Part shown: positions 299 to 58,245 of the stretch, in pieces | Layout: each line of letters starts with the position of its first letter | Numbering within the stretch: the stretch's first letter is position 1 | NCBI GenBank assembly: GCA_043739785.1 | Contig: JAYUDN010000001.1 | Coordinates: 37,392-101,391, forward strand | Direction of reading: 5' to 3' | Length of the DNA: 64,000 nt | Source: Candidatus Altimarinota bacterium | Lineage (GTDB): Bacteria > Patescibacteriota > Gracilibacteria > BD1-5 > UBA2023 | Notes under the pieces: generated by a model | What the model was told of the DNA's origin: nothing | Databases searched by the model: none | What the model saw: the letters and a program-made list of their open reading frames with translations, nothing else | Position numbers and translations under genes: made by a program

Positions 299-424
299 GG
301 CAAGAAATGGCTTTCCCTCGGGAGAGGAAAGAGCCAATACGAATATAGATATAAAAATAAAAACTATAGAAATCATCCATAGATCCGTTCCTACAAGGAA
401 TGGTATCTGGGGAGACCCGATTTC

Positions 425-455
425 AGTCCGCCATACCGGCGGACTTTCGTTTTTT
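425..455 (+). terminator. Rho-independent terminator-like hairpin
   Basis: agtccgcc / ggcggact stem with a 5-nt loop, followed by a T-run (tttttt). Confidence 0.4.
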
Positions 456-12351: not shown

Positions 12352-13485
12352 ATGTCCTACGATCAGTTTGCTACCACATTCTCGAAGAGTCGGAAACACC
12401 ATCCTTGGCCAGAATTGGACGCTATTATTTCCGATATCCAATCCGAGGGATATATGAGGGTGCTTGATGTCGGGTGCGGTAACGGAAGGCTCCTCGAAGA
12501 GTGGTTCAAAAGAAGCGAAGCAAAACAAGGTTTGAATTGAGAACAAGAAAACCCCCCGTCGAAGGGGGGCAGGGGGATACGGGGTTGGTATGCTAACTCG
12601 AATCAAGCTATTCCGTATGATAGAAAACTCCTGGAAAAAGCGAAAGAAAATAGAAAATCTGGAAATCCAGTAGAAAATGCTTTTTGGTTTACTATTCTGA
12701 AATCTGAATCTCTTAAAAAATATAAGTTTACTCGACAGAAGCCACTTCTGACTTATGTAGTTGATTTTTATTGTTCCGAACTCTGATTGATTATCGAGCT
12801 CGATGGGGACTCTCATACTACTCAGATTTTATATGATCAAAAAAGAACCGAGGAACTAGAAAAGTACTGACTTTTTATCCTCAGATTTTCGAATCAAGAT
12901 GTGATGTTGCGGCCAGAGTGAGTATTAGAGAATCTACTTGAATGCATTCGACAGAGAGAAAGTTACCCCCCTCCCCCCCTTGGAAGGGGGGTATCACACC
13001 CATATACTTGAAATTGAAAAGAAGCTTTAGATATTACATATCTCTGAATCGATAATTCAGTCGGGATGATTAATGAAGCTAGAAAATGCCATCCTGGATA
13101 TGATTTCCGAGTTATTGAAATGGCTCAACTTGAAAACTTGAAAACTTGAAAACTTGAAAACTATGACGCTATAGTCTTGTTGGCATCTTTCCATCACCTC
13201 GAAACCGAAGCAGAGCGACTGACCGTATTGTCATCGCTTCGGAAAATGCTTTCACCACACGGACGAATCTATATGACGAACTGGAACCTGCTCGGGCAGC
13301 CTCGATATGAAAAAAGTCACCGAGGAAATGGCGACTTCGATATCAAGATCGGGGAATACATTCGATACTACCATAGTTTCCAGATCGAAGAGCTCCAGAC
13401 ACTTTTCGAAAAATCTGGATTCAGTATTCGAGAACATAGAATATTTGAAGGAGGAAAAAATATTTTCTCTATCGTAGGATTATAG
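12352..13485 (+). CDS. Class I SAM-dependent methyltransferase carrying an in-frame DUF559 endonuclease cassette
   Basis: Motif I VLDVGCGNGRLL lies upstream and LGIDNSVGMINEARK plus LLASFHHL downstream. One uninterrupted code-25 frame covers 377 codons. 12253..12540 and 13177..13485 are in the same frame (924 nt apart). Confidence 0.7.
12541..12995 (+). mobile_element. DUF559 (Vsr-like endonuclease fold) cassette with GC-rich hairpin ends, inserted in frame
   Basis: IPYDRKLLEKAKENRK...AFW..L......YKFTRQKPLLTYVVDFYCSEL(G)LIIELDGDSH...YDQKRTEELEKY(G)LFILRFSNQDV. Flanked by cccccc-gtcgaa-gggggg (12552..12569) and cccccc-ttggaa-gggggg (12974..12991). Confidence 0.7.
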
Positions 13486-24966: not shown

Positions 24967-25081
24967 CGGAGTCTCCTCTATCAGCCTCGAGAGGGTGCGA
25001 ACAGGATATGAAAAAAGCGTATTTATGCAAACTTTGTTATGATGGCTTTGATTTTCCTCGTGATTTCTCTATACTTTCCTC

Positions 25082-25492
25082 ATGCCAAGAACCCCGAAAC
25101 TTCCTCCTTCAGATGAAGGGAAAATCATTTCTGAAAAAGATGTCGAGCACCTCGAGCACCTCGTGAATGCCATCCAAGCGCTTGGACTCGAAGAATTTAT
25201 CGAGTATATCCAGTCACCTTGGAAGCTCCTCTGGCCAAATTTTATCGCTGGGGTCGCTCGATGATTCGGAGCCCTTGTCGGTGCGGCGATCGTCATCTGA
25301 GTGATATGATGGGTTCTCTCGAGCCTGATCGACCTTCCCCTGATCGGGAAACGTCTTGAACCCTATGTCCAAAATGTCCAGTCGGAACTCAAGCAGTATA
25401 CCGAAGCGACCAACTATCGACCCTACTTCGAAAGTATGAATCAGACACTCCGAAAGATAGAAACTAATACCCAACCATGACTACTAAAGTAG
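25082..25492 (+). CDS. Small membrane protein (DUF5665-like)
   Basis: 136 aa. The PNFIAGVAR(G)FGALVGAAIVI(G)VI(G)WVL hydrophobic core contains TGA-Gly codons. Overlaps the fmt start. Confidence 0.45.
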
Positions 25493-26427
25493 GTTTTTTT
25501 GGAACTCCTTCTTTATCTGCCTCAGTCCTGGCAGATCTTTTCGAGGCCTCAGATATAGAGGTGACCTTTGTGGTGACCAATCCAGATAAGGCGGTCGGAC
25601 GATCCGAAGTCCTCGTGCCAACTCCGGTGAAAGAGCTCGCTCTCCTTCACAAGATTCCCGTATTTACCCCGACCAGAATCCGAGATAATACCGACCTCTT
25701 CGACACGCTTCGATCATTTGATGTGGAGTACTTCATCGTTGTCGCCTATGGCCGCATCCTCCCCCAGGAAGTCCTCGATATTCCGAAGAAACTCTGCATC
25801 AATATCCATGGCTCTATCCTTCCGAAATACCGAGGGGCTTCCCCGATTCAATCAGCTCTCCTTCATGGAGAGACCGAGACGGGCGTAACGATTATGAAAA
25901 TGAGCCTCGGGATGGATGAGGGTGATATTTTGAAAATTCGTACGATTCCTATCGCGGCCCATGAAACCAGTGAAACTCTGTTTGAGAAGTTTGCGGAGGT
26001 ATCGGGACCGACCCTCATCGCGACTCTTCATGAACTCGAGATGGGAGGGATTACATCACTTCCACAGAACTATATCGAGGCGACGTACTGTACAAAAATA
26101 GAAAAAGAAGATGGACTCGTGGATTGGAATCTTCCGGCGCGTGAAATCTATCATCGATGGCAGGCCTATACGCCTTGGCCTGGGATCTACACGATGTATG
26201 AGGGGAAACGCCTCCTTCTGGAGGGCGTTTCCAGTTGAAAGTTAAATGTTGAAAGTTGAAAGTTCGGAGAAACGTGACAAGTGATCAAACTGGAAGATGG
26301 TTCAATCTGAGTTCAATGTGGAGAATGAATCTTGACACTTGAGCAAGTAAAGCTAGAATGAAAAAAAACTCAATCCATACGGGATTTTGTAAATGGGAAT
26401 CGGAAGTTTTTAGAGTATAGGTTTTAG
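25477..26427 (+). CDS. fmt: Methionyl-tRNA formyltransferase
   Basis: FFGTP.....L..L, NIHGSILPKYRGASPIQ and a C-terminal domain read through five TGAs (VQCGEGILTLEQVKLEGKK). Confidence 0.9.
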
Positions 26428-27722: not shown

Positions 27723-27734
27723 AAAGTATATAAT

Positions 27735-28187
27735 GTATTAGTTTATTAGTTTATTAGTTTATTAGAGCATGAGAGCACTGGTGAACGGATGTACCGGACA
27801 AGAACTTTTTTACAGTTTTCGAAACTTCAAGAGTAGATTCTCGTTTTCTCGGGAATGACAGTAGTAAAATTCCCCTTTCAACCTGCTAACTCCCAGAATC
27901 TACTTTTCTCCGTCTCCGTCGCTTCCACCCCTCCTTTTTTACCCCCTAGTCCCCCTTGGAAGGGGGATTCGGAATCCCCTTATTCGTCGTCCAAAGCCTT
28001 TCCACTTTCCGACTTTCTAACCAGCCAATCAGCTTACCGACTCCTTTCCCCATCCCAGCTTACCTGCACCTAGCTATCTCCTCTTCCTCGTCTATTTCGT
28101 CTCTATAGTTTCTACCCTTCACTCCTTCCACCAACCAGCATACCAGCTAATCAGCCAATCTACCTCACTTCTAATCCCCCCTTTATT
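27735..28187. repeat. Intergenic mosaic repeat array A
   Basis: gtttatta x3 (27741..27764); GC hairpin accccctagtcccccttggaagggggattcggaatcccc (27941..27979); reverse-orientation word tracts (ccagccaatcagcttacc, tctaccc). Confidence 0.8.
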
Positions 28188-29074: not shown

Positions 29075-29755
29075 ATGCATTCCACAGATCCTCATTATCC
29101 CATCGAATACACGCTCTGAGAGGTCGAGTTTTTTGGACGGAAATTCCGAGTGACGCCTGATGTATTGATTCCTCGTCTCGAGACCGAGTGACTCGTTCGA
29201 CGAGCTCGCACCCTCCTCCAAAAATCCAATAATCTAAGCACTCAAAAAACCACCATTATTGATATTGGCACCGGTTCATGAATCATCGGGGTGAGTCTTG
29301 CTGATCTCGCGGAGGAAGTGATATTTCTCGATATTTCCGAAAAGGCCCTTGAAGTAGCTCGAAAAAACTTTCGTACTCATTTTCCGAATAAAAAAGCAAA
29401 GTTTCTCCTATCAGACCTCCTTTCCAATATACCAATATACCAATATACCAATATTCTCCTTGTCGCCAACCTCCCCTATATCAAAGCCGATGACTGGGAA
29501 CATATGAGCGAAGACACTCGATATGAACCGGAACTCGCCCTCTTCGGCGGAGAACACACCGGATTCGAACTCTACGAGAGGCTCTTCGAGCAACTTTCAA
29601 CTTTCAACTTGCAACCTGTAACGGTTATGATCGAATTCGGGTTTGATCAACGAGTCATAGCAGAAGAAACCCTAAAGAAATATGGTTGGAAGTATGCATT
29701 TTTTACTGACTATGCAGGCATAGAACGATTCGCGGAAATTAATATTGACTTATAA
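29075..29755 (+). CDS. prmC: Release-factor glutamine methyltransferase (HemK/PrmC-like), short form
   Basis: FRVTPDVLIPRLETE(G)LV, GTGS(G)IIG and VANLPYI (NLPY in place of NPPY), with a TGA at 29279 inside the GxGxG SAM motif. The N-terminal helical domain is absent. Confidence 0.75.
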
Positions 29756-30574: not shown

Positions 30575-32908
30575 CTACCGATATTGGGAAGCAAGTTCTT
30601 CAAGGGCTTCTAGTTTTAGAAGAACATATGTTTTTTTATTCATTGTCGCTCGTTTCGTGTTTTCTTGTAGCCAAGCTTTTGAGCTATTTTTTAAAGTGGT
30701 TCTTTTGAGAACTTCGTATTTAAGTGGAGCATATTTTGACTCGATTAAGGCTCGGTATTCTTCACCAATAGCCTGGTAAGGTATCCCGGATATTGTTATA
30801 ATACCATTTTCGTTTATTTCCTCATCGATTAGAGAAACTTTTGTATTGATTTCAGCAAGTAACTCTCCAATCTTGCTTACACGTATGGCTCTTCATTTTA
30901 TTCCAGTTTGGGTGTTAAAAAATGGAATACTAAGTTTATCTTTCAGACCCGCTCTCATTGAATGATTCAGATATTGATTATTCTTTCCGTACGTATTTTC
31001 AATATAGTGAATATACCTATTGTCTAATACGTAATACCGTTCTCCTTTAAACGCAAATAATCCGTTTTCATCGATTGCATCAGCATGTACTAAAGACTTT
31101 ACACTCATTTTATCTATTAGAACACTTATAGAGCAAAACTGATACCTTTCTCATTCTTGGGACTGTCATACTTTTAGGTGGTCTTGAGATGCCTTTAGGT
31201 GGTTTTGTAGTCTTTGGAGTCACTCCAACTCAATACTAGCATATCATCTTCAGAGAAGTTCTATCAGTTCTCTGTCGAAGTCCGGATGAATTGCCTGAAA
31301 AGGTACTCATCATATAGTGCCAACACCATTTTTATTTATTTCTACAGATACAATATCTTCCATTACCTCATAACCAGAGAGTGTAAGATTATTAAGCATA
31401 ACCTCTCCTAGCTCATGCATCATCTCAAATGCATTCATTATACCACCTACTCGCTTACTACCATCTCAAGATACTTTAGTATTCGTAGAACCACTATTGG
31501 GGCTGGTTCATCTACTCTGTGCATCTGGTGGAGGAGTCAGTACATCCCATGACCGAGGAGCCATATAGAGTGTATTACTTGTATTTTTTGGAGGATATTT
31601 TTTTAGGTCTTGGGCACTCAAGGAACGCATAATTCGTCACATCAGCTGTATACTCTTGGCCGGAGACATAATCGCACATCACTGCAAATAACATCGAAGG
31701 GTCCTGACATCCCATCACTCTGCGACTTGTTGTACCGTTATAACCAGATCAATACTTCTATCCTGTATTCCTTTTTTTGCTTCGCGTGCGTCCATACCTT
31801 TTTTATACTTTCCATTTCCACTTGTCACGCGTACGGCTTTTACTCACTTTGATAGAGCAAGCTGAGTCACACTCTCAGCGTGTTCTATACTTCTACAAGC
31901 GTATATGCCAAGAAGATAATTATCTTGAGCCTTTTTCTCCTCAACGTACTCATCTATAAGCACTTCATCGAAAACCTTACCATCTTCATCAAAGTATCGA
32001 TATTTTTCATAGTCTTTTGTCGTGTCGTCATCATTGGGGCGGGTAGCATACGCATGACCGAGCAGCCGAGCCGTCGGAAGTATCAGAGTTCCATCATTGA
32101 CCGCGTCTTGAATTTTTCCCATATAAAATGGACGGGCGTATTCGAGTACATTTTTATTGGTAAGTCCAGGAGTAGCCGTAAAGTAAAGGTGAAGTTTTTT
32201 CTTGGCAATTTCTGAGATAATGGCTTCAGCTTTATCAATCTCAGATCCATCTTCAGACTCGGTGTCTTCCTCGGAAAGTGAAGTAAAGTGAGATTGAGTT
32301 TTTTCTCATAAACTCTTATGTCACTCATCAGATATGATACAATTTACCTGAGCAAAGATACTTTTAAGTACACCAAAATGAGACTTCGCAAGCTGATTGA
32401 ATCCATGGTAGGTAAGTATGATTACACCATTTGTATTCGATTGCATAAAATGGGGTATTCACTGAATCTGTTCTCATAGACTCCCATCACTTTCAGATGA
32501 TAGGCAAAATACCTCTCATTCGCTATACCCGACACCTGACTTCTCTTCGTTTCCTACGAGTTCATCTCGAGTATTACTTATAAGAGGAATATTGGGAACG
32601 AGAATGACATTGTTTCATCCGAGGGCTCTAAGTATTTTTCAGAAGAGATAGGTTTTTCCTACTCAGATGGCCAACTTCGCCAGTCCTGTACGATATCAAG
32701 ATTGTACTCAATCTATGATTCCACCAAGAGCATCATTTTGCTGTCCACGAAAAGAAATATCCTCATCACTCAGTTTCTGTAACTTCGCCACTTCTGATGG
32801 TATATCAGGCTGGGAAAGAATATCTGTAACTTTTCCACTATTGTCATTTGTGGGTAATCATAGGGCGGGGGGTGCATCAGGGCTGACCGATGGTTCTTCA
32901 GTATGCAT
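30575..32908 (-). CDS. SF2 (DEAD/DEAH-box, type III restriction res-like) helicase, 777 aa
   Basis: Motif I LAI(G)VGKTY, motif II IISDE(G)H, motif III TATPG, motif VI QLM(G)RIMR. More than 30 in-frame TGAs, so only 2 fragments (30893.., 31844..) appear in the standard-code track. Confidence 0.7.
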
Positions 32909-33156
32909 GGAAATAATTAAGTTACCTATATATAATAATATTATTATAACATATATATGTAAATATACAAATACTTCTAGTCACATCTAATTTCTACTTC
33001 TGCAGTTAGTCTACATTTTTGAAGTATCAAAAGGTTCTGTACTCATCTAAAGCCGGAGAATAATATCTTGTGACAAGCACAGAATAGGAGTCTATTAACT
33101 CTAAACAACATGAGTAAAATCAGTTTTCCTTGCCTTCAGTGATGAGTGTACATTAT

Positions 33157-34289: not shown

Positions 34290-34560
34290 AGAGGGGGAGG
34301 GGTTAAGAATTAGCTGGTTAGCAGGTTTGTTGGGAGGTTGGGATGGGAGAAGGGTAGAGACGGTAGAAACGATCGAACGGTAGAGACGGGGGGCTGGTTT
34401 GCTGATTAGCTGGGAAGGAGAGAAGCTGGTTGGTGGGGAGAGGAGTTTCCATCCCCCTTCCAAGGGGGGCAGGGGGTAAAAAAAGAAGAGTAGAAAAGTA
34501 AAGAGAGAAACCTTATAGTACGGTCATTCCCGTGAAAACGGGAATCTAAATGAAACTTCA
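34290..34560. repeat. Intergenic mosaic repeat array B
   Basis: gctggt/ggtagag words, GC hairpin tccatcccccttccaaggggggcagggggt (34447..34480) and gtcattcccgtgaaaacgggaatc (34523..34546). Confidence 0.8.
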
Positions 34561-34657
34561 CGACGTTTCTGTTTTAAAAAAAGATTCGCCCGAGGGCCAA
34601 TCTTTTTACTATTCCTCCTGAGTATATCGATAGTTTATGAATTGTAAAATTTATTTT

Positions 34658-36685: not shown

Positions 36686-37480
36686 AAAGTTAGAATAGGA
36701 GGTAGCTGGTAAGCTGGGATGGGAGAAAAAGGGAGAAGAGTGGAAAAGGAGAAAGCTGATTCGCTGGTAAGAAAGTTGGAAAGGAAAAATAGTAGGATAA
36801 CTCGAGAGGAGGAATGGGTAAGATGATGCAAGGGTAAAAGAAAAAAAACGAGTTTTTGTCATTCCGACCGAAACGACCATAGGAAGTGAAGTGGAGGAAT
36901 CCCTTTTCACATTAAGAAGATAAAATCATACTGAAACCAAGGGATCCCTCGATTCCGGCTATCTCCTCCACTCGGGATGACAACGGTGAGAGAAGAGTAG
37001 AAGAGCGTAAAAGTAGAAGAGTAGAAGAGCGAATGGGGGTCTCTATCCCCCTTCCAAGGGGGACAAGGGGGTAGGGTATAAGGAAGTTTGGTGTCATTCC
37101 GACCGAAGTGACAGAGGGGAAAGCGCCACGAGAATTCCATTGTTACTTTGTCATTCCCGTGAAAACGGGAATCCAGCAAATAAGAAACTGGATCCCCGCA
37201 TGCGCGAGGATGACAACCAAAAGAAGTAGAAAAGAGGAAAGGGAGAGAACTTAGAAACGATGGGAAGGTGGATGAGAGTTTTTTGAATCCCCCTTCCAAG
37301 AGGGACTAAGGGGAGTAGGGTATAAGGAAGTAAAAAAGGAGAAGAGTAGAAAAGTAGAATTGGATAAAGTAAGAACAGCAAGAGCCAAACACGGGAAAAC
37401 CCGAGCACTCCAACTCTCGGAGAGATGATCACATTGAAAAGAGAGAAGAAAGTCATATAATACGCCACTCATACACATCT
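36686..37480. repeat. Intergenic mosaic repeat array C (about 0.8 kb, largest in the window)
   Basis: Modules: M3 36858..36903, M5 36941..36982, GC hairpins 37031..37086 and 37280..37330, M3 37093..37138, M1-M2 composite 37150..37215, plus gtagaag and gctggt word tracts. Confidence 0.85.
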
Positions 37481-37730
37481 ATACCCCTCGCTTCCCCTAC
37501 GAAATATCCACTCCCAGATTATAAAACAACCCAATACTTAACCGTCAATACCTCTTTATTTGCTATCGTGTTTTGATATATGGTATACTGACCGTGTATC
37601 TTCAATATCAAAACATATGTTCTCGTCCTCACTCGGTTTCAATAAAAGTTCTCTCCTTGTCGTCAGTACTCGTGAAGAACTCAATATTATTTTTACCGGA
37701 GCCCGCATCAAGTATAACTCCATTCGACAA

Positions 37731-39249: not shown

Positions 39250-40578
39250 ATGCCATCTCTTACTCTTTCTCACAATCCACATCATGACCTAGTATGACAT
39301 ATAGAACTATATGGCGGAAAGCTGGGTTCTCTCGAGTTTATAAAAAAACTGTATTTGGATCATCCTGAAGAGTTCGATGAAACTGGTATTAAAGTCTGAC
39401 CACAATATACTCCCACTATCATACCAGGCGGATGAAGTATGACGGAGGATGACTTTGCAGCTTTCATGAATAAACATCATCTTGCTGAATGGTCTGAGAT
39501 TATGGTTCGCGTAAGTGTTCCTGGAGACTATAGGAGTCTTGTAGACACAATGCCGACCAAATCACTCAATATCTCCCCGATAGAGTACTGGAAAGATTTG
39601 CCTGACGGTTCTCGTGATTTACTCTTCGAGCCAGAGTGAGCCACACGCATAGTGACTCCTTGCGACAAAGTCAATGAAGTGTGCCGGCAAATAAGAGGTC
39701 GTGTGGAGGAAATAAAATGAGATATTCTGCAGTATGCGAATCTTGCCGGAGTACCATTTAGTATGGATACACTTACGTATGGGGTAGTCCCTCGATTCTC
39801 AAAAGGTCATATCACTGTCACCGAACATCCGAATCTCGATCAAACCTATATCGAGGAACATTTTCAAGAACACTGATATAGGCCTAGTTGAGTGAGGATA
39901 TGAAAACCTGAGGACTATTTCAAGAGTCCACTAGCAAAAGTACAGAAATTCCTCCAGTTTCTCAGAAAAAAATGAGTTCTAGATAAAGAAATTGCATATA
40001 GTTTTGAATTATGAAAAAACGATTCAGATGAACTTATTTTGTTTCAGATTCGTGAACTCTGTCGAAAAGTCCCCACACCATCCCCGGCACTTACTCTCAG
40101 AGGATACAATAATGATTATATAGGAACGATTCTTACGACCATCCCATCTGGAGGATCAAAAATTTTTGAACTTTGCTCCAAATCCAATGATTCTATACAA
40201 ACACCTGTATGAGTCCCACTCTTTGGAGAATTTCGAGGAGGTAGTCTTTCAAGTTTGGATAGCATAACTCTTGATCCGAACAAGTCCGGAATTCTTACTG
40301 AAAGTAATCGAAATCCTACTATTGGTGGTCATGATGTCATGCGACAGGCTCAATATGCACTTCAGAGTCCTGGATGAGGCATTGTAGTACTCTGAGAATT
40401 CTCAGACTGATGCGGCTCATATATCTCTGACATCGAGCGTGATTGTAAGCCAACCCCATCATACGATGAAAATTTATCTCGCGATTACCAAGAATGAAGT
40501 GCAAAACTGGAAGTGATGCACTTTTCGGATTGATATATTGAAATCAAAAAACTGTCCTCATTTAATGGGGAGGACTAG
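39250..40578 (+). CDS. Hypothetical protein (442 aa)
   Basis: A continuous code-25 frame with about 20 in-frame TGAs. Only a 66-aa piece (39439..39639) is visible in the standard-code track. Confidence 0.4.
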
Positions 40579-42557: not shown

Positions 42558-42645
42558 AGATAAAAAAATTACTCTTTCAGGATACCATATATCTCCAGGG
42601 AATGCAAAAAATTGACTTTCCGAATCTGCGCAATACACTTTTTCC

Positions 42646-43275
42646 ATGAAATGTATCATCTGACTCGGAAATCCAGGGAAAAACTATCAACATACTCGAC
42701 ACAATGTCGGGTTTATGATGATAGACCAGATTGCTGAAAGGTATGGCGATGGAGTATGGAAGGATTCGAAGTTCCAGGGAGTGGTTTCGAGTTGAGAGTT
42801 TCCTGTTTTCAGTTGAAAAAAACTTTTATTGGATTCTACAGGTGAATGAATGGAAAGAGCTGTGAATGGACAACCAACAGCTCAAAACTCAAAACCCAAA
42901 ACCGAAAACTGTCTCCTCCTGAAGCCTCTTACCTTTATGAACCTCTCAGGGCAGTCGGTCGCGAGCCTGGTACACTTCTACAAACTGGATCCGAAGACCG
43001 ATATTCTCGTCATCGCTGATGATATCGATATGGCATTCGGAAAGGTTCGATACCGGGCAAAGGGGAGTTCCGGAGGGCAAAATGGACTCAAGTCCATCAT
43101 CGAACATCTCGGGACGGACGAATTCGCTCGGATCAAAGTCGGGATTGGTCGGGATGATCGCTTCGCCGTGAGTGACTGGGTTCTCTCGAAGTTCACGAGT
43201 GAAGAAATGAAAATACTCAAAGAAGTCGTATTTCTGGAGGTTCAGTCAAAAATAGATGAATGGATGGAGGGGTAA
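42646..43275 (+). CDS. pth: Peptidyl-tRNA hydrolase with an internal insertion of about 32 codons
   Basis: MKCII(G)[39 protein letters not shown] and VGIGR. The N-terminal part is only recovered by reading TGAs at 42661, 42793, 42814 and 42847. Confidence 0.85.
42784..42910 (+). repeat. Heptad-array-bounded segment inside pth
   Basis: Left: gtttcga|gttgaga|gtttcct|gttttca|gttgaaa (42784..42818). Right: ctcaaaa|ctcaaaa|cccaaaa|ccgaaaa (42881..42908). The two arrays are in inverted sense. Confidence 0.7.
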
Positions 43276-43838
43276 TGAAAAGTGAAGAATGAATAACGAA
43301 GAATAGAGGGGAAATTACGAAATACGAATGAAGAATTAGTAGCAAAAAATGAAGAATATGAGCCCTTCGTCATTCTGAGGTCGCCCCTTTGCGAAGCATT
43401 GGAAGTACCCTTGGGGTACGAAGAATCCAGATTCCGAAAGACCGAACTTCTTCAGGACTATCCTGATCGGTGTACGGGAGTGAAAAATTGTTGTCATTCC
43501 CGTGAAAACGGGAATCCACTTCTCTTTACCCCCTTAGTCCCCCTTGGAAGGGGGATTCAAAATCCTCATTCGCTTTTCTTTTGTTGTCATCTCGAGTGGA
43601 GGCGATAGCCGGAATCGAGAGATCCCTTTGCTTCAGTATGATTTCAATCCCTTGAAGTGGAATAAGGGATTCCTCCGCTTCACTTCCAGCGGTCGTTTCG
43701 GTCGGAATGACAAAAAAATCAGTTCTACTCGTCTACCATCTTCTACCACACTCTACCATCTTCTACCACACTCTACCATCGTCTACCCAACCAGCACACT
43801 AGCAAACCAGCCAACCAGTTATTTCCTAACCTTCCCCT
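43276..43838. repeat. Intergenic mosaic repeat array D
   Basis: M6 43367..43429, M1 43493..43517, GC hairpin 43527..43565, M5 (reverse) 43586..43625, M3 (reverse) 43666..43711, and CTACC phased every 10 nt at 43733..43783. Confidence 0.85.
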
Positions 43839-44681
43839 ATGCGTCTTGATCTCGCCGTATCCTCGAAACTCAGTATTTCTCGCAACCGTGCCCAGCGTCT
43901 TATCGATGAGGGACTCGTTTCTGTCGACGGGAAAGTCTGTCGAAAACCGTCCCATGAAGTGGAAGGGGAGATTATCGAAGTATCCGAGGGTTCCAGTAAT
44001 CACTGGGTTGCTCGGTCAGCAGGGAAACTGGATGGTTTCTTGGATGAGTTGCAGGTTGAAGGTTGCAGGTTACAGGATGAAAAATGAGAAAATGTATGAG
44101 AGAAAAACTCCATTCTTGATCAATCCAGCTCGTTTTTATGAACCAAGATAGATGAAGTTCTAGTTTCAAAACCTTCAACTTGCAACTTGCAACTTGCAAC
44201 TGCCACCTGCCTCGACATCGGCTCTTCTACCGGAGGATTTACTCAGATCCTCCTCGAGCGGGGAGCGAGGCGAGTGGTTGCGGTCGATGTCGGGACGGAT
44301 CAGCTTCACCTTAGTCTGCGAGGCGATCCGCATATCGAGCTCTATGAAAATACGGATATTCGCACCTTTTCGAAAATAGAAAAATTCGACATTATCACCA
44401 TCGATGTTTCCTTTATCTCCCTTCGGGAAATCGTTCCCGAGCTACAGAGATTCATGAAAGAGGATACCGATATATTCCTTCTTTTTAAGCCTCAGTTTGA
44501 AGTCGGACGAGCGAACCTCCGTAAGACGGGAGTCCCGAAAAGTGAGGGAATCATAGATTTATCCCTTCATGATTTCCAGATATTTCTCGAACATGCCGGA
44601 TTCACCATAATGAAAGTATCGAAAGCTCAGGTCGTCGGGGAAGCTGGTAATCAGGAGTATATGATGTGGGTGAGGCGGTAG
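43839..44681 (+). CDS. tlyA: TlyA-family rRNA 2'-O-methyltransferase (S4 plus FtsJ domains) with an internal insertion
   Basis: The S4 domain is MRLDLAVSSKLSISRNRAQRLIDEGLVSVDGK. The SAM motif is CLDIGSSTGGFTQILLERGA..V.AVDVG. 43839..44087 and 44187..44681 are in frame. Confidence 0.8.
44048..44204 (+). repeat. Heptad-array-bounded segment inside tlyA
   Basis: Left: gttgcag|gttgaag|gttgcag|gttacag (44048..44075). Right: cttcaac|ttgcaac|ttgcaac|ttgcaac (44173..44200). The arrays are in inverted sense and bracket a ~95-nt core. Confidence 0.7.
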
Positions 44682-45030
44682 GGAGGTAGAAACGAGGGAA
44701 AGATAGAGACGGAAAAAGGCCGGTAAGCTGGTTTGCTGGTTAGAGGGTTGGAAAATTGGAAAGTGGATGAGTGGAAAAGGTAGAATAAATGAGCTTTTGT
44801 CATCCCGACCGAAATGGAACAAGTTGGAGTGTAATAGAGAAACCCCATTTCTATTTTGTCATTCCCGTGAAAACGGGAATCCAGCAAACAAGAATCTGGA
44901 TCCCCGCATACGCGAGGATGACAAACAAAGGAAGTGGCAGAAGTCTAGAAAGATAGAAAAAATTAGAATATATAACAAGAAAAAACTGAAAAATTTGCCA
45001 AATAAAAATAAATAGAGTATGATTAGTAGG
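44682..45030. repeat. Intergenic mosaic repeat array E
   Basis: ggtagaa/gctggt words, an M3 variant at 44799..44845 and the M1-M2 composite at 44858..44923. Confidence 0.8.
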
Positions 45031-45049
45031 TAATTCACCTTTGTTAGAT

Positions 45050-45865: not shown

Positions 45866-46290
45866 GAGAAAGCTGGTTAGCTGGTTCGCTGGTAGGAGAG
45901 GAAGCCGGTAAGCTGGTTTGCAGATTAGCAGGTTGGTCGGTCGGGTAGAAAGGATAGAGATACTTCATATGGATAATTATAGAAGACAAAAAGAGTGAAA
46001 TTCCCCCTTGATAAAGGGGGTGAGGGGGATTTTGTTTCCCCTTTCTTACTTCCTAATCTGTCTATCTTGTCTATGCATTTCTCTTTCACCTTCACCTGCC
46101 TATATTGTGCTGTGTTCATACTCTCTCTACTCACCCCTCCCTCCTACCGACTTCCACCCTTCAACTTTCTAAAGAGCAAACCAGCCCTCCCCGTTTCTAC
46201 CATTTCTACCGACTCTATAGATACAGAGTCCCGAGTATTTGCCTTTTCACCCGATTTCACTATATTTCTCCTGACTAAGAACTAACTTTC
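45866..46290. repeat. Intergenic mosaic repeat array F
   Basis: 8-nt periodic words agctggtt|agctggtt|cgctggta ... gccggtaa|gctggttt|gcagatta|gcaggttg|gtcggtcg|ggtagaaa (45871..45959), and a GC hairpin at 45998..46034. Confidence 0.8.
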
Positions 46291-46296
46291 CAACTT

Positions 46297-48481: not shown

Positions 48482-49261
48482 TTAACACACTACAACTTTT
48501 TCCTTCTCTTTTTCATAGGCTCACTGTGGTTCAGACTCTAAAAAAATAAGAGGGGCAAATACCTCAATTCCAAGTGACATGATTGTATTATTACAATAAC
48601 TTGTCGACCAGACTTGTTTTCCATCGCTTCCTCTCTGTACTGGATAAATACTAAGTGTTCCGTGTCCATCTTCTACTGGAATTTTCCATGTTCCCGCTTT
48701 GGTCAGAAGCATTCAAGAAGTCGAGAATCACACTTCTGCAGGTCATAGATTTTTTTCTCCTACGTAGGTAACTTCCTGATGAATCGAAGGGGCGTAATAT
48801 TCAGCCAGTTGTATTATCGCACGTGGACTATAGAAAAATCTTCGAACTCCATGTTCATCAGTAAATTCGATACAGAATCATTCATCTCTCGTAATTTTTT
48901 CAAACCATCCGTTAGTATTTATAGCTCAACTGAATTGCAAAGCGTCATCAATAGTTACTTCAGAAACTGGCGTTAGATTTTTATCACGTCCTCAGGACGT
49001 ATAAATATATTTTGCAAACACGGCTCATCATTTATTTAGATCTTTAAGTTCCGGTGGTAGGGGTTGCCGAGAGAGCCAATCCGGAGAGATACACTTTCTT
49101 CACAGAAATGAAGTAAGTGCTTCCGGAGGAATTACTAATCATTCTCAGAGTCAAAGAACTTTATTAGATCATTTAGTAGTCGTTCAAATAACAGAACCTA
49201 AGCCAGATCAAGAATAGATTTTGCCTGCTTCATTTCTTGTTCATCGTAAACGATTATCCAT
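48482..49261 (-). CDS. Hypothetical protein (259 aa), very UGA-Gly rich
   Basis: A continuous code-25 frame with about 20 in-frame TGAs. Only 48521..48712 is visible in the standard track. Confidence 0.4.
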
Positions 49262-49300: not shown

Positions 49301-50194
49301 TTACTCTCTAGATGTACCCAATTTTCCTACTTGTACTTGCACACTTCCAGTAACCTCTACCACATTTCTTTGGTTCGGGATTCAGAAAAGCTCGGCGATA
49401 TCGTCAGGCAAGTGTGGGGTTGTTTCGAAAGAACAGACGAGGGTGTTTTCCAAATGTACCTCGATATGTTGATCTCAGGAAACGATGTAAAATGTCGGTT
49501 TTACTTCTGGAACTGCAGGCGTGGTTTCTCTCGGGGCGTCTCCTTCTCTATGACCGGAATGATATCTGAAATCAAAAATAGTTTTTGAGGTTTCAGATAG
49601 ATCTTCGCCAGATTGTGCTATACTCCCATTTTCCAGAAACAACCAGTGGATATAGGTCGTAAATCATCATTCATCCTGCCCGTCTTTGAATACCTCTCCA
49701 GTAAGATTCAGTTGCAAATGTGAGTTAATTCATCGTTGTTTTACAAAAGAAAGGATTTTCACTTTCCCATCATGTCAAAACTCAGTAAAAGTTTCCGGTT
49801 TTATACGGAAAGAATTTCTTCATACATACTCATCTACTCAGTTATCAAATGTGACATTTTTTGATTTTTGTTTCATTTTAAATTCTGTCACTCCTCCATC
49901 TTCAATGTGGGCTACTATTTCAGTGGTTATAACCCCATCACGCTTTCTAAAAATTAGACTCTCTAGCTCTGCTCTCATAAATTTACTAACTACCTCCCAT
50001 TCTCAGTGTTTAAAATAAGAATAGGAAAAACCTTTTTCGATTCATGTCTCTGGCTCTCCAGCACTATCAATTCTATCTACTAGCTCTGCAGGGAATGGAG
50101 TGCTCGGGAGCCTTTCAAATGTACCAAATGGACTTTCAGCCACTCAAGTCAAAGGAGTGACCGAGGTAAAAGCAGGAACCAGAAAATTATCCAT
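49301..50194 (-). CDS. Hypothetical protein (297 aa)
   Basis: ATG at 50194 and TAA at 49301, with 11 in-frame TGAs. It is in the same frame as the downstream gene and is entirely absent from the standard-code track. Confidence 0.45.
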
Positions 50195-50306: not shown

Positions 50307-51284
50307 ATGTATATCCTTGCAATTCCGACATCTCATACTATCGATACGGAGCCACTGATTTATTTCTGTCCCGAGAACTTCGAGTCGCAGATAGGACTCG
50401 GTTCGCTAGTCGAAATCCCCGTTCGTACGTCGATGACCTATGCGGTCATTTCGGATATTGATGTGGAAATACCAGTCGGGCTTGAGATTACTGATATCCG
50501 CTCGATCGTCCGAGTGGTCTGTACGACGCCACTATTGGGCGAGGATACCCTTCGCGTGATTCCAGAAATTGCTGAACTCTCTCTCGTCCCGATTCATAAG
50601 GTCCTCTCCCTCTTCCTTCCGAAGTCGACATTGACAGCTCTCGAGAAGAAGAATTTTGAGGTGTTGGATAGTTTGCCGGTAAGCTGGGATGCTGGTTTGC
50701 AGGTTGGGGAATTGGAAGTCAAATCTGAGAAAAGAAAACTTGAGAACTCAAAACTCAAAACTCAAAACTCAAAACTCGAACGTTCCATCGAATTCTTTCA
50801 TTCGACTCGAGTGACCCCGGCTGTCATCGAGACCTATATAACCCCCGATACGCTCGTTATCCTGCCTGACGATATCCTCCTTCGTTCGTGTGAACAGTAT
50901 TTTACGAGTCAGTCTTCCTTGAGGGAAGAGCATTCTCACGGAAAACAAGCATTATTTACCTATGGAGATACGACGATCACTCGAAAGATCCGGAGCTGGG
51001 TCGATGTGAGAAATCATAAATTTTCGATTTGTTTTTGAACTCGACGACTTCTTTACTATAATCTCTCGAAGTATCGACAGATCCTCTATATAGAAGATGG
51101 ATTCGCTCGTGAGTACTTCCAGCACCCGCTCCGATACAAGCATATCGATATTCTCAGAGCCCTTTCGAAGCACTCTTCTCTCGATATCCGTATCCTGACG
51201 AGCATCCCAGCGCTCGAAACCCTCTCAAAACTCCGAAACTTTTCCATCCACAATATCACATGAAAATCGACCCTCAACGAATAA
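50307..51284 (+). CDS. Degenerate, truncated PriA-like (primosomal protein N') protein
   Basis: The N-terminal 3'-DNA-binding-like domain is LIYFCPENF...GSLVEIPVRT. STRVTPAV occupies the Walker A position and IEDGF the DEEH position. The protein ends after 325 aa. Confidence 0.5.
50675..50781 (+). repeat. Word/heptad repeat block inside the PriA-like gene
   Basis: gccggtaagctgggatgctggtttgcaggttggggaattggaag (the same words as the intergenic arrays), then ctcaaaa x4 plus ctcgaac (50747..50781). Confidence 0.7.
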
Positions 51285-54607: not shown

Positions 54608-54892
54608 ATGAATATCTCCACAGAATTTCTCTACACGATCAGTAATCTCTACCTCTATCACGTCGGAAGTGTTGGAGTGGCTATTGCTATTATTATCGTA
54701 TGTATTCTTTTTGTGGTGGTATGTCATTTTGCATTTGTCTTTACTTATGGGGATCTCCTCCTTCGAAAAGAGGCACAACTCCTCGAACATAAGAAATCCG
54801 TCCTGCAAGAACTGATCCTGATGAAGGATATCCAGACCGAGATCGAAAAAGAGATCGAAAAAGCCATGCTGAATCAGACGTTTAGTGGGTAG
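54608..54892 (+). CDS. Small membrane protein (94 aa)
   Basis: A TM helix VGVAIAIIIVCILFVVVCHFAFVF followed by a charged coiled-coil-like tail. Confidence 0.45.
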   Translation: MNISTEFLYTISNLYLYHVGSVGVAIAIIIVCILFVVVCHFAFVFTYGDLLLRKEAQLLEHKKSVLQELILMKDIQTEIEKEIEKAMLNQTFSG

Positions 54893-55520
54893 GAAGCAGG
54901 TAGATCTTGGTAGATAACAGGTAGAAACGGCAGTAGGTAGAAAGCGAGGAAAATAAGATGAGAAAAGGCTGGTATGCCGTTAGGCTGGTAAGCTGGTATG
55001 GGAGAAACGAATGGAAAAAGGAATAGTAGAGAGATGATAGCAGATAGAATATGGGAAAATGGTAGAAACGGTAGAAGAGGAGAAAAGTAGAAAAGGGAGG
55101 AACGATAGGATTGGTAAAAAATGGATGGGATTTTTTGAATCCCCCTTTCAAGGGCGACTAAGAGGGTAACGGTTCGGAAAGACGATGGGGAGGTAGAAAT
55201 GATGGAATGGTAGAAAAGGTAGAAGCGAAAGAAGTATTTTTTGCGTTATTCCGACCTTAGTGGAATAAAGTAAAATCAAGAGAAGGAATCGTATCCTCAT
55301 TTCGTCATTCCCGTGAAAACGGGAATCCAGCAAATAAGGAACTGGATCCCCGCATACGCGAGGATGACAAAGAGACGAAGGAATGCCTCTCCCGAGTCCT
55401 ATGGATCGGCATGACACAGTATTGTCATTCCGACCGAAACGACCAGAGGAAGTGAAGTGGAGAAATCCCTTTTATTCTCATCCGTCTTGTTCGATAGTTT
55501 TTATCGATTTTCCTTCTATT
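54893..55520. repeat. Intergenic mosaic repeat array G
   Basis: GGTAG at 54888, 54899, 54909, 54920 and 54936; GC hairpin 55141..55182; M1-M2 composite 55304..55369; M3 55424..55468. Confidence 0.85.
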
Positions 55521-56447: not shown

Positions 56448-56700
56448 AGGGGACGAGAGTTCGAGAGTATAAGAGTTTTACAGTTTAAGAGGAGAAGGGC
56501 GCGGAAGCTTGGAAGCTAGTTAGCCGGTAAGCTGGGACGGTAGAAATGATGGGATGGAGGCGGTAGAAACGGCAGAAACGATTTCTGTGTCATTCCGACC
56601 GAAGCGGAGGAATCTCTTTTCTCGTTTTGTCATTCCCTTGAAAACGGGAAGCCAGAAAACGATGGGATGGTAGAGGAGCTAGACATGGGAAAATGTAGGC
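56448..56700. repeat. Intergenic mosaic repeat array H
   Basis: gctggt/ggtagaa words, M3 at 56589..56614 and an M1 variant at 56629..56655. Confidence 0.8.
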
Positions 56701-56762
56701 ATTCTACCGAAAGAGCATGGTTATTTGCTTTTTCATAGGCTTTTGTGATACAATAATGATAA

Positions 56763-57968: not shown

Positions 57969-58245
57969 GAGAGAGACGGTAGAAATGGTAGGAGCAGGTA
58001 GATTCTAGCAAATAGAAGATAGAAAGGGCAGAGAGGTTAGAAACGGTAGAAACTAAGTATAATTGGTAATTCCATCCCCCTTCTAAGGGGGATTGGGGGG
58101 TAAGGTATGAGAGAGCGAAATGGTAGAAGGGTAGAAAAGTAGAAAAGGGAGAAGTTGAATAGGATGAGTAGTTCAATTACAGTATAGCTTCTATTCAGCT
58201 CTTTTTTGGTTTGGAGAATGAGGTTTTTTTCCATAAAATCCCACT
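57969..58245. repeat. Intergenic mosaic repeat array I
   Basis: GGTAG at 57978, 57987 and 57997; GC hairpin 58070..58109; gtagaaaag words. Confidence 0.8.

What the first reader, a model, noticed from the sequence alone, without database searches (positions are those of the whole stretch)
44048..44204. tlyA carries about 40 extra codons bracketed by inverted GTTGCAG/CTTGCAAC heptad arrays
The gene contains a 157-nt block between KLDGFLDEL and the SAM motif CLDIGSSTGGFT, which are close together in TlyA proteins as I recall. The block is 4 x gttNNag, then a ~95-nt core, then cttcaac plus 3 x ttgcaac. Left heptads 1-2 are complementary to right heptads 1-2 (14 bp with one G.U). The core reads ENV-G-EKNSILDQSSSFL-G-TKIDEVLVS with no TAA or TAG. 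This is the same architecture as the pth insert, in another housekeeping gene.
Basis: partly seen in the sequence, partly recalled or inferred. Interest (0 to 1): 0.75.

Follow-up and report, generated by a model that had tools for sequence, protein, structure and literature searches.

The report
In-frame heptad-repeat hairpin inside tlyA
A Gracilibacteria rRNA methyltransferase gene (tlyA) carries a real insert of about 44 codons made of simple-repeat DNA, which is most likely just translated as a floppy surface loop, so it is a new variant of the known "selfish or simple repeats inside genes" theme and not a new kind of genetic element.

Summary
tlyA (43839-44681, +) holds four GTTNNAG heptads (44048-44075), a 97-nt unique core, then CTTCAAC plus three TTGCAAC (44173-44200). 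The arrays form a ~24-bp stem (z = -4.4).

The genome uses code 25 (UGA = Gly). The block is in frame, has no TAA or TAG, and carries three UGA codons. Against M. tuberculosis TlyA it adds about 44 residues (44055-44186) between the first helix of the methyltransferase domain and strand beta-1. AlphaFold gives a normal TlyA fold, with the insert as a low-confidence excursion.

In 114 related TlyA proteins, every internal insertion of 6 or more residues falls at this loop or one other. At this loop, at least one other lineage carries a repeat element with clear terminal inverted repeats.

The core has no second copy in the window. The arms belong to one heptad family, (Y)AAC(Y)T(K), which is hairpin-prone and stop-free. 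It recurs in hemK and fmt here and sits in frame in aroE, prmC, rsmB and fmt of unrelated metagenomic bacteria.

Best reading: a translated, tolerated simple-repeat insertion that probably grew in place by slippage and template switching. The pth insert resembles it in composition, but its arms do not pair significantly. No evidence supports RNA-level removal.

The parts
43839..44681 (+). tlyA coding sequence: 280 codons plus a TAG stop, read with code 25 (UGA = Gly)
   Evidence: Open only if TGA is sense. Pfam S4 at residues 1-43 (E 2.9e-11) and FtsJ at 118-279 (E 1e-30). PDB TlyA 7s0s_B E 2e-33. Foldseek top hits are TlyA structures.
44055..44186 (+). The inserted block proper: 44 codons (residues 73-116) absent from M. 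tuberculosis TlyA. Boundaries are uncertain by a few codons because the arrays overlap native linker codons.
   Evidence: phmmer alignment: query 9-72 matches Mtb 30-94 and query 119-279 matches Mtb 97-260. It is a 39-residue insertion against the consensus of 114 orthologs. AlphaFold pLDDT is 47-51 over about residues 81-110 and above 85 elsewhere.
44048..44075 (+). Left arm: GTTGCAG GTTGAAG GTTGCAG GTTACAG. On the minus strand it reads CAACCTG, CAACCTT, CAACCTG, TAACCTG.
   Evidence: TRF period 7, 4.1 copies; sequence.
44076..44172 (+). Unique 97-nt core. The left part is A/G-rich and C-poor with a roughly 8-nt ATGA periodicity; the right part is G-poor.
   Evidence: No second copy in the window by blastn-short. 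Composition: C is 8% in 44048-44110 and G is 13% in 44111-44201.
44173..44200 (+). Right arm: CTTCAAC TTGCAAC TTGCAAC TTGCAAC (= CAACTTG x3.7, perfect). Its last codons (LQLATAT) stand where the native residues before strand beta-1 should be.
   Evidence: TRF 100% matches. Alignment to Mtb 'IAVAGRR'.
44047..44071 (+). 5' strand of the RNA/DNA stem; pairs with 44170-44194
   Evidence: the repeat finder I2 and I5; MFE structure with two helices of 12 bp.
44170..44194 (+). 3' strand of the stem
44085..44141 (+). Span holding the three in-frame UGA (Gly) codons at 44085-87, 44097-99 and 44139-41. These are the only UGA codons in tlyA.
   Evidence: UGA is 1.4% of codons genome-wide in the window, so it is about 5-fold enriched in the insert.
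42646..43275 (+). pth: 209 codons against 153-173 in relatives. It has an in-frame insert at about 42790-42915 and a right array CTCAAAA x4.3 at 42881-42910.
   Evidence: The arms do not pair significantly.
29591..29615 (+). hemK/prmC: a solo array of the same heptad family (CAACTTT CAACTTT CAACTTG CAACCTG), in frame, with no core and no partner array
26233..26264 (+). fmt C-terminal domain: a solo array AGTTGAA x4.6 (minus strand CAACTTT), in frame
50652..50789 (+). PriA-3'BD-like gene: an in-frame block with GCTGGTT-type octads on the left and AACTCAA x4.7 on the right. It has the same G/T-rich to C/A-rich polarity but the arms do not pair.
45912..46185 (.). Intergenic module with the same layout: a G/T-rich array, a 226-nt core, then a C/A-rich array. 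It shares GCAGGTTG and CCTTCAACTT with the tlyA arms.
   Evidence: the repeat finder I1

Best explanation
The block is a lineage-specific, in-frame insertion of simple-sequence DNA in a permissive loop of TlyA. It is translated as part of the protein. The organism is a Gracilibacterium that reads UGA as glycine. The only stops are therefore TAA and TAG, and the block contains neither. The ribosome reads straight through and makes a 280-residue TlyA. About 44 extra, probably disordered residues hang between the first helix of the methyltransferase domain (which carries the catalytic Lys) and strand beta-1 with the SAM-binding loop. Both arms are arrays of one heptad family, (Y)AAC(Y)T(K), in opposite orientation. 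This heptad is a near-palindrome (CAA-N-TTG), so it forms hairpins easily, and its commonest forms here (CAACTTG, CAACCTG) have no stop codon in any of the six frames. Such arrays can therefore arise by replication slippage and survive inside genes. The most likely history (inferred, not shown) has three steps. Arrays grew in place in a loop that tolerates change. Template switching on the hairpin then made the left flank complementary to the right array. The A/G-rich, cryptically simple core accumulated between the arms. The insert probably has no dedicated function. Its 24-bp mRNA stem may slow translation or affect mRNA stability as a side effect.
For: Genetic code: TGA sits at the conserved Gly of pth 'IIGLGNPG', and long ORFs exist only if TGA is sense. 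The named relatives are Gracilibacteria / Ca. Altimarinota.

Gene intact: S4 and FtsJ domains are present and the residues invariant in relatives are kept, including K63, D150, K217 and E268. The AlphaFold model has mean pLDDT 88 and matches TlyA 7s0s_B at TM 0.75-0.79; only the insert is low-confidence.

In frame and open: the length is a multiple of 3 and frame 0 has no TAA or TAG. Chance of an open frame given the composition is 0.28, and the same holds for the pth and priA-3'BD inserts. Jointly this is about 0.003 once the 1/3 chance of each being in phase is included.

Position fits selection on the protein: in 114 orthologs all 29 sequences with an internal insertion of 6 or more residues have it at two loops only, 9 at this one. 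At this loop the insert in L084 (P0020) is a repeat element with clear terminal inverted repeats. The inserts in P0043, P0051, P0052, P0082 and P0060 read like translated copies of repeats seen between genes in the window; this was judged by eye from the peptides only.

Intragenic arrays are a stop-free subset: 8 of 9 arrays inside genes lack any TAA or TAG on the coding strand, whereas 19 of 28 strand readings of intergenic arrays contain one (Fisher P = 0.005).

Arms belong to a heptad family, not to a unique element: CCTTCAACYTKC occurs 8 times against 1.26 expected, in hemK, fmt, tlyA (both arms) and two spacers.

The same heptads lie in frame in aroE (two contigs), prmC (two), rsmB, a class I methyltransferase, fmt and a glycosyltransferase of unrelated metagenomic contigs that use the standard code.

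Growth in place is plausible: two orthologous aroE genes (75% identical) have the array in the same loop at the same length. One has only the forward array; the other has an inverted array plus the forward array around a 7-nt loop.

Slippage of heptanucleotide repeats is an established idea: they are reported as the most abundant long simple repeats in most of the prokaryotic genomes examined (Mrazek 2007, as summarised in PMC4679880).

Array density here is 4.2 per 10 kb against 0.92 in 78 loci from other bacteria.
Against: There is no direct evidence of translation, neither proteomic nor transcript data. The frame and stop argument is partly circular, because genes were recognised as open frames. 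UGA is about 5-fold enriched in the tlyA and pth inserts (6 in about 80 codons against 1.4% overall). This shows the sequence is not codon-adapted and may be young or of non-coding origin. No close relative without the insert was found, since the nearest TlyA is about 60% identical. The history (in-place growth or transposition) is therefore inferred from analogies only. The 97-nt core is not an obvious array, and its origin is unexplained. A 24-bp stem inside an ORF is unusual and might be selected for something.
Confidence: 0.65

Rival explanations
1. The block is a copy of a mobile palindromic element (MITE-like, comparable to Rickettsia palindromic elements). It transposed into tlyA, happened to be in frame, and is translated. 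The heptad arrays are its terminal inverted repeats.
For: The terminal inverted repeats are 18 nt at 94%. The genome is full of MITE-like repeats, and its spacers are expanded compared with relatives. In L084 (P0020) a clear TIR element (TTTGTCATYCTGAGA...) sits in frame in the same loop. An intergenic module at 45912-46185 has the same array-core-array layout and shares motifs with the arms. In-frame MITE and RPE insertions are documented (PMC5896051; PMC3184786).
Against: No second copy of the core exists in 64 kb. The independent Logan contig (probably a short-k-mer assembly) ends in the flanking repeats but runs straight through the block, so no long identical copy is likely elsewhere. No target-site duplication is visible by inspection. 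Solo arrays of the same heptads exist without a core (hemK, fmt). The arms of the similar pth and priA-3'BD blocks use other units and do not pair.
Confidence: 0.2
2. The arrays or the hairpin are functional. One version is a phase-variation switch: gain or loss of one 7-nt unit shifts the frame and turns TlyA off, which in mycobacteria gives capreomycin resistance. The other version is an mRNA structure that paces translation between the S4 and methyltransferase parts or sets mRNA half-life.
For: A unit of 7 nt is not a multiple of 3, and the right array is perfect. The stem is strong. Heptamer arrays have been proposed as regulatory sites in other bacteria (PMC4679880).
Against: The copy number is identical in the window, in an independent assembly contig reported from two samples, and in the NCBI protein. 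Arrays have only about 4 units. The same kinds of array sit in pth, fmt and hemK, where an off state would be harmful or lethal. There is no terminator, promoter or Rfam motif. Equivalent blocks in pth and priA-3'BD have no significant structure.
Confidence: 0.07
3. The block is not in the mature product. Either the stem brings the flanks together and the core is excised from the mRNA and religated, or the ribosome bypasses it as in T4 gene 60.
For: A long stem brackets the block. UGA codons are concentrated in it. Short identical words flank it (TTGCAG / TTGCAA).
Against: The block is in frame and stop-free, which removal would not require. Insertions in 114 orthologs are confined to two protein loops, which points to selection on the protein. 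There is no intron or other RNA family. No stop follows a candidate take-off codon. The pth and priA-3'BD blocks lack a bracketing stem. No such mRNA excision and religation is known in bacteria (own knowledge).
Confidence: 0.03
4. tlyA is a decaying pseudogene, or the block is an assembly error.
For: Under the standard code the gene is broken by three TGA codons.
Against: The code is 25. The frame is open over 280 codons and all family-invariant residues are kept. Two independent sources give the identical sequence.
Confidence: 0.02

Closest known systems
Rickettsia palindromic elements (RPE; Ogata et al. 2000, cited in PMC3184786) and other in-frame MITE insertions (e.g. Coxiella QMITE, PMC5896051)
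   Same: A palindromic block of about 100-150 nt sits inside a housekeeping gene. It is in frame and stop-free, sits at a structurally tolerant site, and is presumably translated without benefit to the host.
   Different: RPEs and MITEs are families of many homologous copies. Here the core is unique in 64 kb. The arms are tandem heptad arrays, not a fixed terminal repeat, and no target-site duplication is seen. The host reads UGA as sense, which lowers the barrier to read-through.
Heptanucleotide simple repeats of bacteria: long simple sequence repeats (Mrazek 2007), cyanobacterial STRR repeats (own knowledge), and TAACTGA direct repeats of Beggiatoaceae, Cyanobacteria and Bacteroidetes (MacGregor 2015, PMC4679880)
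   Same: Short head-to-tail arrays of a 7-nt unit with 2-6 or more copies. They are lineage-sporadic, mostly intergenic and close to gene starts, and only occasionally lie inside ORFs, mostly near the ends of the protein sequence. Slippage is the proposed origin.
   Different: The unit here is (Y)AAC(Y)T(K), not TAACTGA. TAACTGA in forward orientation carries stops in all three frames, whereas CAACTTG has none in six frames. Here the arrays lie inside essential enzymes, occur as inverted pairs forming a long stem, and bracket a unique core. I found no paper that contains these heptad arrays as sequence strings.
Programmed translational bypassing (T4 gene 60; 'byp' inserts in yeast mitochondria; own knowledge)
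   Same: An extra block inside an essential ORF with local RNA structure and repeated words at both edges.
   Different: Bypassed gaps are not constrained to be in frame or open, and they need a stop or a slowly decoded codon right after the take-off codon. This block is in frame and open, and its position follows protein loops.
Helix-bracketed intervening sequences and expansion inserts in rRNA, including the rRNA insertions of CPR bacteria (own knowledge)
   Same: Lineage-specific extra sequence closed by a long stem, placed at tolerant surface sites of a conserved molecule.
   Different: Those inserts are in rRNA, and some are cut out by RNase III without religation. Here the host is an mRNA, where a cut would destroy the message.

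Membership tests
TlyA family rRNA 2'-O-methyltransferase | N-terminal S4 RNA-binding domain | tested here: met
   Pfam PF01479, residues 1-43, E 2.9e-11
TlyA family rRNA 2'-O-methyltransferase | C-terminal FtsJ/RrmJ-type class I methyltransferase fold with the SAM loop (L/C)LDxGxSTGGFT | tested here: met
   PF01728 E 1e-30. PDB TlyA 7s0s_B E 2e-33. AlphaFold model against 7s0s_B: TM 0.75/0.79, rmsd 2.6.
TlyA family rRNA 2'-O-methyltransferase | Catalytic Lys-Asp-Lys-Glu tetrad retained | tested here: met
   K63, D150, K217 and E268 are invariant columns in 26 relatives and are present here. That these four are the tetrad rests on my own knowledge of the RrmJ/TlyA family.
TlyA family rRNA 2'-O-methyltransferase | Methylates rRNA cytidines | not testable with these tools
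   Needs biochemistry or complementation.
MITE / RPE-type mobile palindromic element | Many dispersed copies with homologous sequence | tested here: not met
   The core has no other match in the 64-kb window, and an independent assembly runs through it. The rest of the genome could not be read.
MITE / RPE-type mobile palindromic element | Terminal inverted repeats | tested here: met
   18 nt at 94% and 25 nt at 84%
MITE / RPE-type mobile palindromic element | Target-site duplication at the edges | tested here: inconclusive
   By inspection, only TTGCA(G/A) recurs at both edges, and that word is part of the arrays themselves.
MITE / RPE-type mobile palindromic element | When inside genes: in frame, stop-free, at a tolerant surface site | tested here: met
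Heptanucleotide simple sequence repeat (LSSR / STRR type) | Three or more head-to-tail copies of a 7-nt unit, above chance | tested here: met
   TRF 4.1 and 3.7 copies. 9 matches against 0.21 expected. Array density 4.2 against 0.92 per 10 kb.
Heptanucleotide simple sequence repeat (LSSR / STRR type) | Copy number varies between strains | tested here: inconclusive
   Only identical sequences were available.
Phase-variable contingency locus | Repeat unit not divisible by 3 inside an ORF, with observed on/off length variants, usually in surface or restriction genes | tested here: not met
   The unit length fits, but no variants were seen. The same kinds of array also lie in the housekeeping genes pth, fmt and hemK.
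Translational bypass element (gene 60 / byp type) | Matching take-off and landing codons, with a stop or slowly decoded codon right after take-off; the gap is free of frame constraint | tested here: not met
   There is no TAA or TAG in the block. It is in frame and open, and its positions follow protein loops.
Group I / II intron or other known RNA family | Match to a curated covariance model | tested here: not met
   No Rfam match at gathering score or at E <= 1 in 42600-44800 apart from a chance CRISPR-DR hit outside the block.
Intein | Self-splicing domain of about 130 residues or more, with nucleophile residues at both junctions | tested here: not met
   The insert is 44 residues. Pfam finds no domain in it and the model is low-confidence there.

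The most novel reading that the evidence does not exclude
The stem-bracketed block is not part of mature TlyA. The paired heptad arms bring the flanks together, and the core with its three UGA codons is skipped, either by ribosomal bypassing or by excision and religation of the mRNA. That would be a bacterial, protein-coding analogue of helix-bracketed intervening sequences.
Probability: 0.03. Interest if true: 0.9.

Novelty: new variant of a known kind. Interest (0 to 1): 0.4.

Why it matters
This shows how a reduced, repeat-laden CPR genome that has lost one stop codon tolerates simple-repeat DNA inside essential genes: tlyA, pth, fmt, hemK and a PriA-3'BD-like gene in 64 kb.

It also points to a heptad family, (Y)AAC(Y)T(K), that is hairpin-prone and stop-free. 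This family turns up in frame in enzymes of many uncultured bacteria, and I found no paper that contains these arrays.

There are two practical consequences:
- Gene callers using the standard code split these genes, as the Logan calls split tlyA into 82-aa and 164-aa pieces.
- Homology models should treat such segments as dispensable loops.

If the arrays change length in populations, they would be a source of frameshift switching in housekeeping genes. That would be unusual.

Tried and rejected
- **Second copy of the cores.** blastn-short with the tlyA and pth cores against the window found only array-to-array matches.
- **Folding of the other two blocks.** The pth and priA-3'BD blocks do not fold better than shuffles, so a shared structure was rejected.
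- **Genome collection scan with a TlyA alignment.** It returned mostly non-Gracilibacteria, with only L002 and L003 useful; UGA probably penalised the confirmation step.
- **P0012 as a shorter homologue of the insert.** It shares AATGAGAAA and GAAGTT, but an NJ tree puts P0012 outside a 20-member clade that lacks the insert. Homology was rejected as unsupported.
- **Metagenome scan for the heptad array.** It gave at least 120 mixed contigs. L203 looked recoded but has open frames in all six frames and no match to the window beyond the array, so it was dropped.
- **Structure prediction of the code-25 translation.** I used P0122, the same protein with W at the three UGA positions.
- **Reading the rest of the genome.** P0122 is not in the gene-position index. 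A look-up of another window protein gave only 2-kb Logan contigs. A genome-wide census was therefore impossible.
- **Known RNA and signal scans.** Rfam and the promoter/terminator scans found nothing in the block.
- **Uptake-sequence idea.** No dominant 6-8-mer is present.
- **Considered by inspection only.** An integron attC site was rejected because the order of the GTT.../...AAC ends is the reverse of attC. A resemblance of GCTGGTTN to the E. coli Chi site was not pursued.
- **Literature.** Searches for Gracilibacteria intragenic repeats and for the heptad strings found nothing specific.
Full report
**What is there.** The window comes from a Gracilibacterium (BD1-5; NCBI phylum Candidatus Altimarinota) that reads UGA as glycine.
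- Under the standard code the 64 kb breaks into short ORFs, the longest 487 aa. With TGA as sense it is densely coding, with ORFs up to 2257 aa.
- In pth a TGA stands at the conserved Gly of 'IIGLGNPG'.
- The best named relatives of the TlyA protein are Gracilibacteria.
- TGA makes up 1.4% of codons and about 20% of Gly codons.

tlyA is 43839-44681 on the plus strand, 280 codons. Pfam finds S4 (residues 1-43) and FtsJ (118-279).

- Four heptads GTTGCAG GTTGAAG GTTGCAG GTTACAG lie at 44048-44075. A 97-nt core follows at 44076-44172, then CTTCAAC and three TTGCAAC at 44173-44200.
- The arrays are inverted copies: 18 nt at 94% and 25 nt at 84% complementarity.
- As RNA the region forms two stacked 12-bp helices that close the core (-52.9 kcal/mol, z = -4.4, 0 of 200 shuffles as good).
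- The word TTGCAACTTGCAAC occurs 9 times in the window against 0.21 expected.
- The frame is open through the block, with three UGA codons (44085, 44097, 44139), which are the only ones in the gene, and no TAA or TAG.
- A Logan assembly contig is 100% identical over 1133 nt, and the protein collection holds the same 280-aa reading from an NCBI genome. The block is real DNA.

**It is extra sequence in a permissive loop.**
- M. tuberculosis TlyA (7s0s_B) aligns to residues 9-72 and 119-279. It has 2 residues where this protein has 46.
- The insert is therefore about 44 codons, 44055-44186. It lies between the helix that carries the catalytic Lys (KLDGFLDEL) and strand beta-1 with the SAM loop (CLDIGSSTGGFT).
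- The last codons of the right array (LQLATAT) stand in for native residues (IAVAGRR in M. tuberculosis). The arrays therefore partly overwrite the native linker and do not only add to it.
Its mean pLDDT is 88.
- All blocks outside the insert score above 85, while residues of about 81-110 score 47-51 and are coil. The model's best structural matches are TlyA proteins. All residues invariant among relatives are kept.

**Comparative evidence.**
- The nearest TlyA proteins are only about 60% identical and lack the insert. In an NJ tree the window protein is sister to P0002 (16-residue linker), inside a clade without the insert. The insert is therefore lineage-specific as far as sampling goes.
- In 114 related TlyA proteins, every internal insertion of 6 or more residues lies at one of two loops. 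Nine sequences have one at this loop and twenty at a second loop after TDIRDF.
- At this loop the other lineages carry unrelated inserts. At DNA level the insert in L084 (P0020) is a typical element with terminal inverted repeats (TTTGTCATYCTGAGA...), in frame.
- The peptides of P0043, P0051, P0052, P0082 and P0060 (e.g. 'SRHSRGWSNPG', 'FCHPSR') look like translations of repeats that are intergenic in the window. I judged this by eye from the peptides and did not check their DNA.
- Insert positions that follow protein loops argue that these inserts are exposed to selection as protein, that is, that they are translated.

**Is there an element family?**
- The cores of the tlyA and pth inserts match nothing else in the window, including each other.
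- The pth insert is real: 209 aa against 153-173 in syntenic relatives. It shows the same polarity, G/T-rich heptads followed by C/A-rich heptads, but its arms do not pair above chance (z = -0.9).
- The similar block in the PriA-3'BD-like gene does not pair either (z = +0.75).
- What is shared is the heptad family. On the minus strand the tlyA left arm reads CAACCTG CAACCTT CAACCTG TAACCTG. The right arm is CAACTTG x3. hemK has CAACTTT CAACTTT CAACTTG CAACCTG TAAC as a solo array, and fmt has CAACTTT on its minus strand.
- CCTTCAACYTKC occurs 8 times against 1.26 expected, including in two intergenic spacers. One spacer (45912-46185) has the same array-core-array layout.
- pth and the PriA-3'BD-like gene share another unit, CAAAACT.

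**The heptad is special, and it is not confined to this genome.**
- CAACTTG is a near-palindrome (CAA-N-TTG; its reverse complement is CAAGTTG) and has no stop codon in any of six frames. This follows directly from the sequence.
- A metagenome scan for three units returned at least 120 contigs with G+C from 27 to 69%. Many hold mixed CAACTTT / CAACTTG / CAACCTG / TAACCTG arrays, and some hold an inverted array next to a forward one (L115, L200, L092).
- Eight hosts were checked with Pfam. The arrays lie in frame in shikimate dehydrogenase (two orthologous contigs), PrmC (two), RsmB/F, a class I methyltransferase, Fmt and a GT4 glycosyltransferase. All are read with the standard code. In several of these the array sits just before a conserved motif such as NPPY, NTTPLGM or FDRILIDAP; reading these as strand-preceding loops is my interpretation.
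- The two aroE orthologs are 75% identical and have the array in the same loop at the same length. One has forward units only; the other has an inverted array, a 7-nt loop and forward units. An inverted arm can therefore arise in place without a change in length. That is what template switching on a near-palindrome would produce (an established mutational mechanism, cited from my own knowledge).
- One published account proposes that heptanucleotide repeats are the most abundant long simple repeats in most of the prokaryotic genomes examined because of polymerase slippage (Mrazek 2007, as summarised in PMC4679880). That paper also describes TAACTGA heptamer arrays close to start codons and, rarely, near the ends of ORFs.
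- I found no paper that contains the present heptad arrays.

**Selection for readability.**
- Of 9 arrays inside genes whose period is not divisible by 3, 8 have no TAA or TAG anywhere on the coding strand. Among intergenic arrays, 19 of 28 strand readings contain one (Fisher P = 0.005).
- The three larger blocks (tlyA, pth, priA-3'BD) are all in phase and open. From shuffles and the 1/3 chance of being in phase, the joint chance is about 0.003. This number is inflated by the way genes are recognised.
- UGA is about 5-fold enriched in the tlyA and pth inserts (6 in about 80 codons). That fits young, A/G/T-rich sequence that is not codon-adapted and would be lethal under the standard code.
- The window has 4.2 arrays of period 6-10 per 10 kb. 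A set of 78 loci from other bacteria has 0.92. Four other Gracilibacteria loci have between zero and about 1.9, and one (L084) has 11. The trait is therefore lineage-sporadic.

**How it most likely works.**
- Shown: the block exists; it is in frame and stop-free under the organism's code; it lies in a loop that accepts insertions in many lineages; the rest of the enzyme is intact; the arms pair; and the arms belong to a dispersed heptad family.
- Inferred: the ribosome reads through and makes a TlyA with a floppy 44-residue excursion. The arrays arose by slippage. The inverted arm arose by template switching. The block has no function of its own.
- I give this reading 0.65.
- The main rival, at 0.2, differs only in origin: a MITE/RPE-like element that transposed in. 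Published in-frame MITE insertions and the TIR element in the same loop of L084 support it. The lack of other copies and of a target duplication count against it.
- A functional hairpin or phase switch (0.07), RNA-level skipping (0.03) and pseudogene or artefact (0.02) are not supported by any positive result.

**Limits.** There are no expression data and no close relatives. Only 64 kb of a genome whose contig is at least 194 kb could be read. The origin of the 97-nt core remains unexplained.

Noticed in passing
window 12352-13485 (+), insert at about 12628-12948: A SAM-dependent methyltransferase gene carries a complete DUF559 (Vsr-like endonuclease) domain nested in frame between SAM motif I (VLDVGCGNG) and the rest of the fold (Pfam E 1e-27). 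It is bracketed by hairpin-coded peptides PPSKGGRG and PPPPLGRG. An octad array AACTTGAA x4.5 lies further downstream at 13127-13162.
   Followed up: partly
window spacers 27723-28187, 34290-34636, 36686-37616, 43276-43838, 44682-45049, 45866-46296, 54610-55256, 56448-56762, 57969-58245: Intergenic spacers are polar. After genes come C-poor G/A/T arrays (GGTAGAAA, AGAAGAGT, GCTGGTTN); before genes come G-poor C/A/T arrays (CTACC.., AACCAGC). GCTGGTTNGCNGGTTG-like words occur 30 times against 1.9 expected. tlyA is flanked by roughly complementary arrays (43732-43819 and 44682-44793), so 5' and 3' untranslated regions could pair.
   Followed up: partly
window 43496-43520, 44866-44925, 37150-37215, 34524-34548, 56625-56650; hairpins near 27950, 34465, 37047, 43535, 46003, 58076: Several MITE-like repeat families fill the spacers: TTGTCATTCCCGTGAAAACGGGAATCC..GGATGACAA, GTCATTCCGACCGAA.., and the hairpin CCCCCTTSSAAGGGGG. 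Peptides that look like translations of the first family appear in frame inside tlyA of other Gracilibacteria (P0043, P0051, P0052: 'SRHSRGWSNPG'); this was judged from the peptides only.
   Followed up: partly
window 43276-43838 compared with L082-L085: Gene order pilT-like(-) / pth / tlyA / yebC / PriA-3'BD is conserved in relatives, but the pth-tlyA spacer is 563 nt here against about 0-80 nt there. This lineage has expanded spacers.
   Followed up: yes
window 29424-29454 (hemK) and metagenome locus L117: A perfect octad array CCAATATA x3.9 encodes the residues just before the 'ANLPY' (NPPY-type) motif of HemK/PrmC, with almost no net change in length. An unrelated metagenomic PrmC (L117) has YAACYTK heptads at exactly the same spot (…QLSTFNLIVSNPPY).
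   Followed up: partly
metagenome loci L089, L200, L117, L172, L190, L097, L110, L132: The same heptad family lies in frame in aroE, prmC, rsmB, a class I methyltransferase, fmt and a glycosyltransferase of unrelated uncultured bacteria that use the standard code. L172 PrmC carries three different in-frame inserts that look repeat-derived in one protein.
   Followed up: partly
window 121-450: This region folds unusually well for its composition (MFE -73 to -76 kcal/mol per 180 nt; second strongest residual in the window). It has no Rfam match at E <= 1 and lies in or next to ORF 168-590, upstream of tRNA-Leu (726-810).
   Followed up: partly
window 48482-49261 (-), 25025-25492 (+), 49301-50194 (-), 39250-40578 (+), 30575-32986 (-): These genes have very high UGA density (3-6.6% of codons against 1.4% on average). 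This suggests different composition or origin.
   Followed up: no
L084 2040-2087 and 4480-4533: Another Gracilibacteria lineage (the P0020 genome) is even richer in short-period arrays (11 per 10 kb). They include a C/A-rich array at the second TlyA hot spot and two octad arrays inside its PriA-3'BD gene, the same gene that carries arrays in the window.
   Followed up: partly
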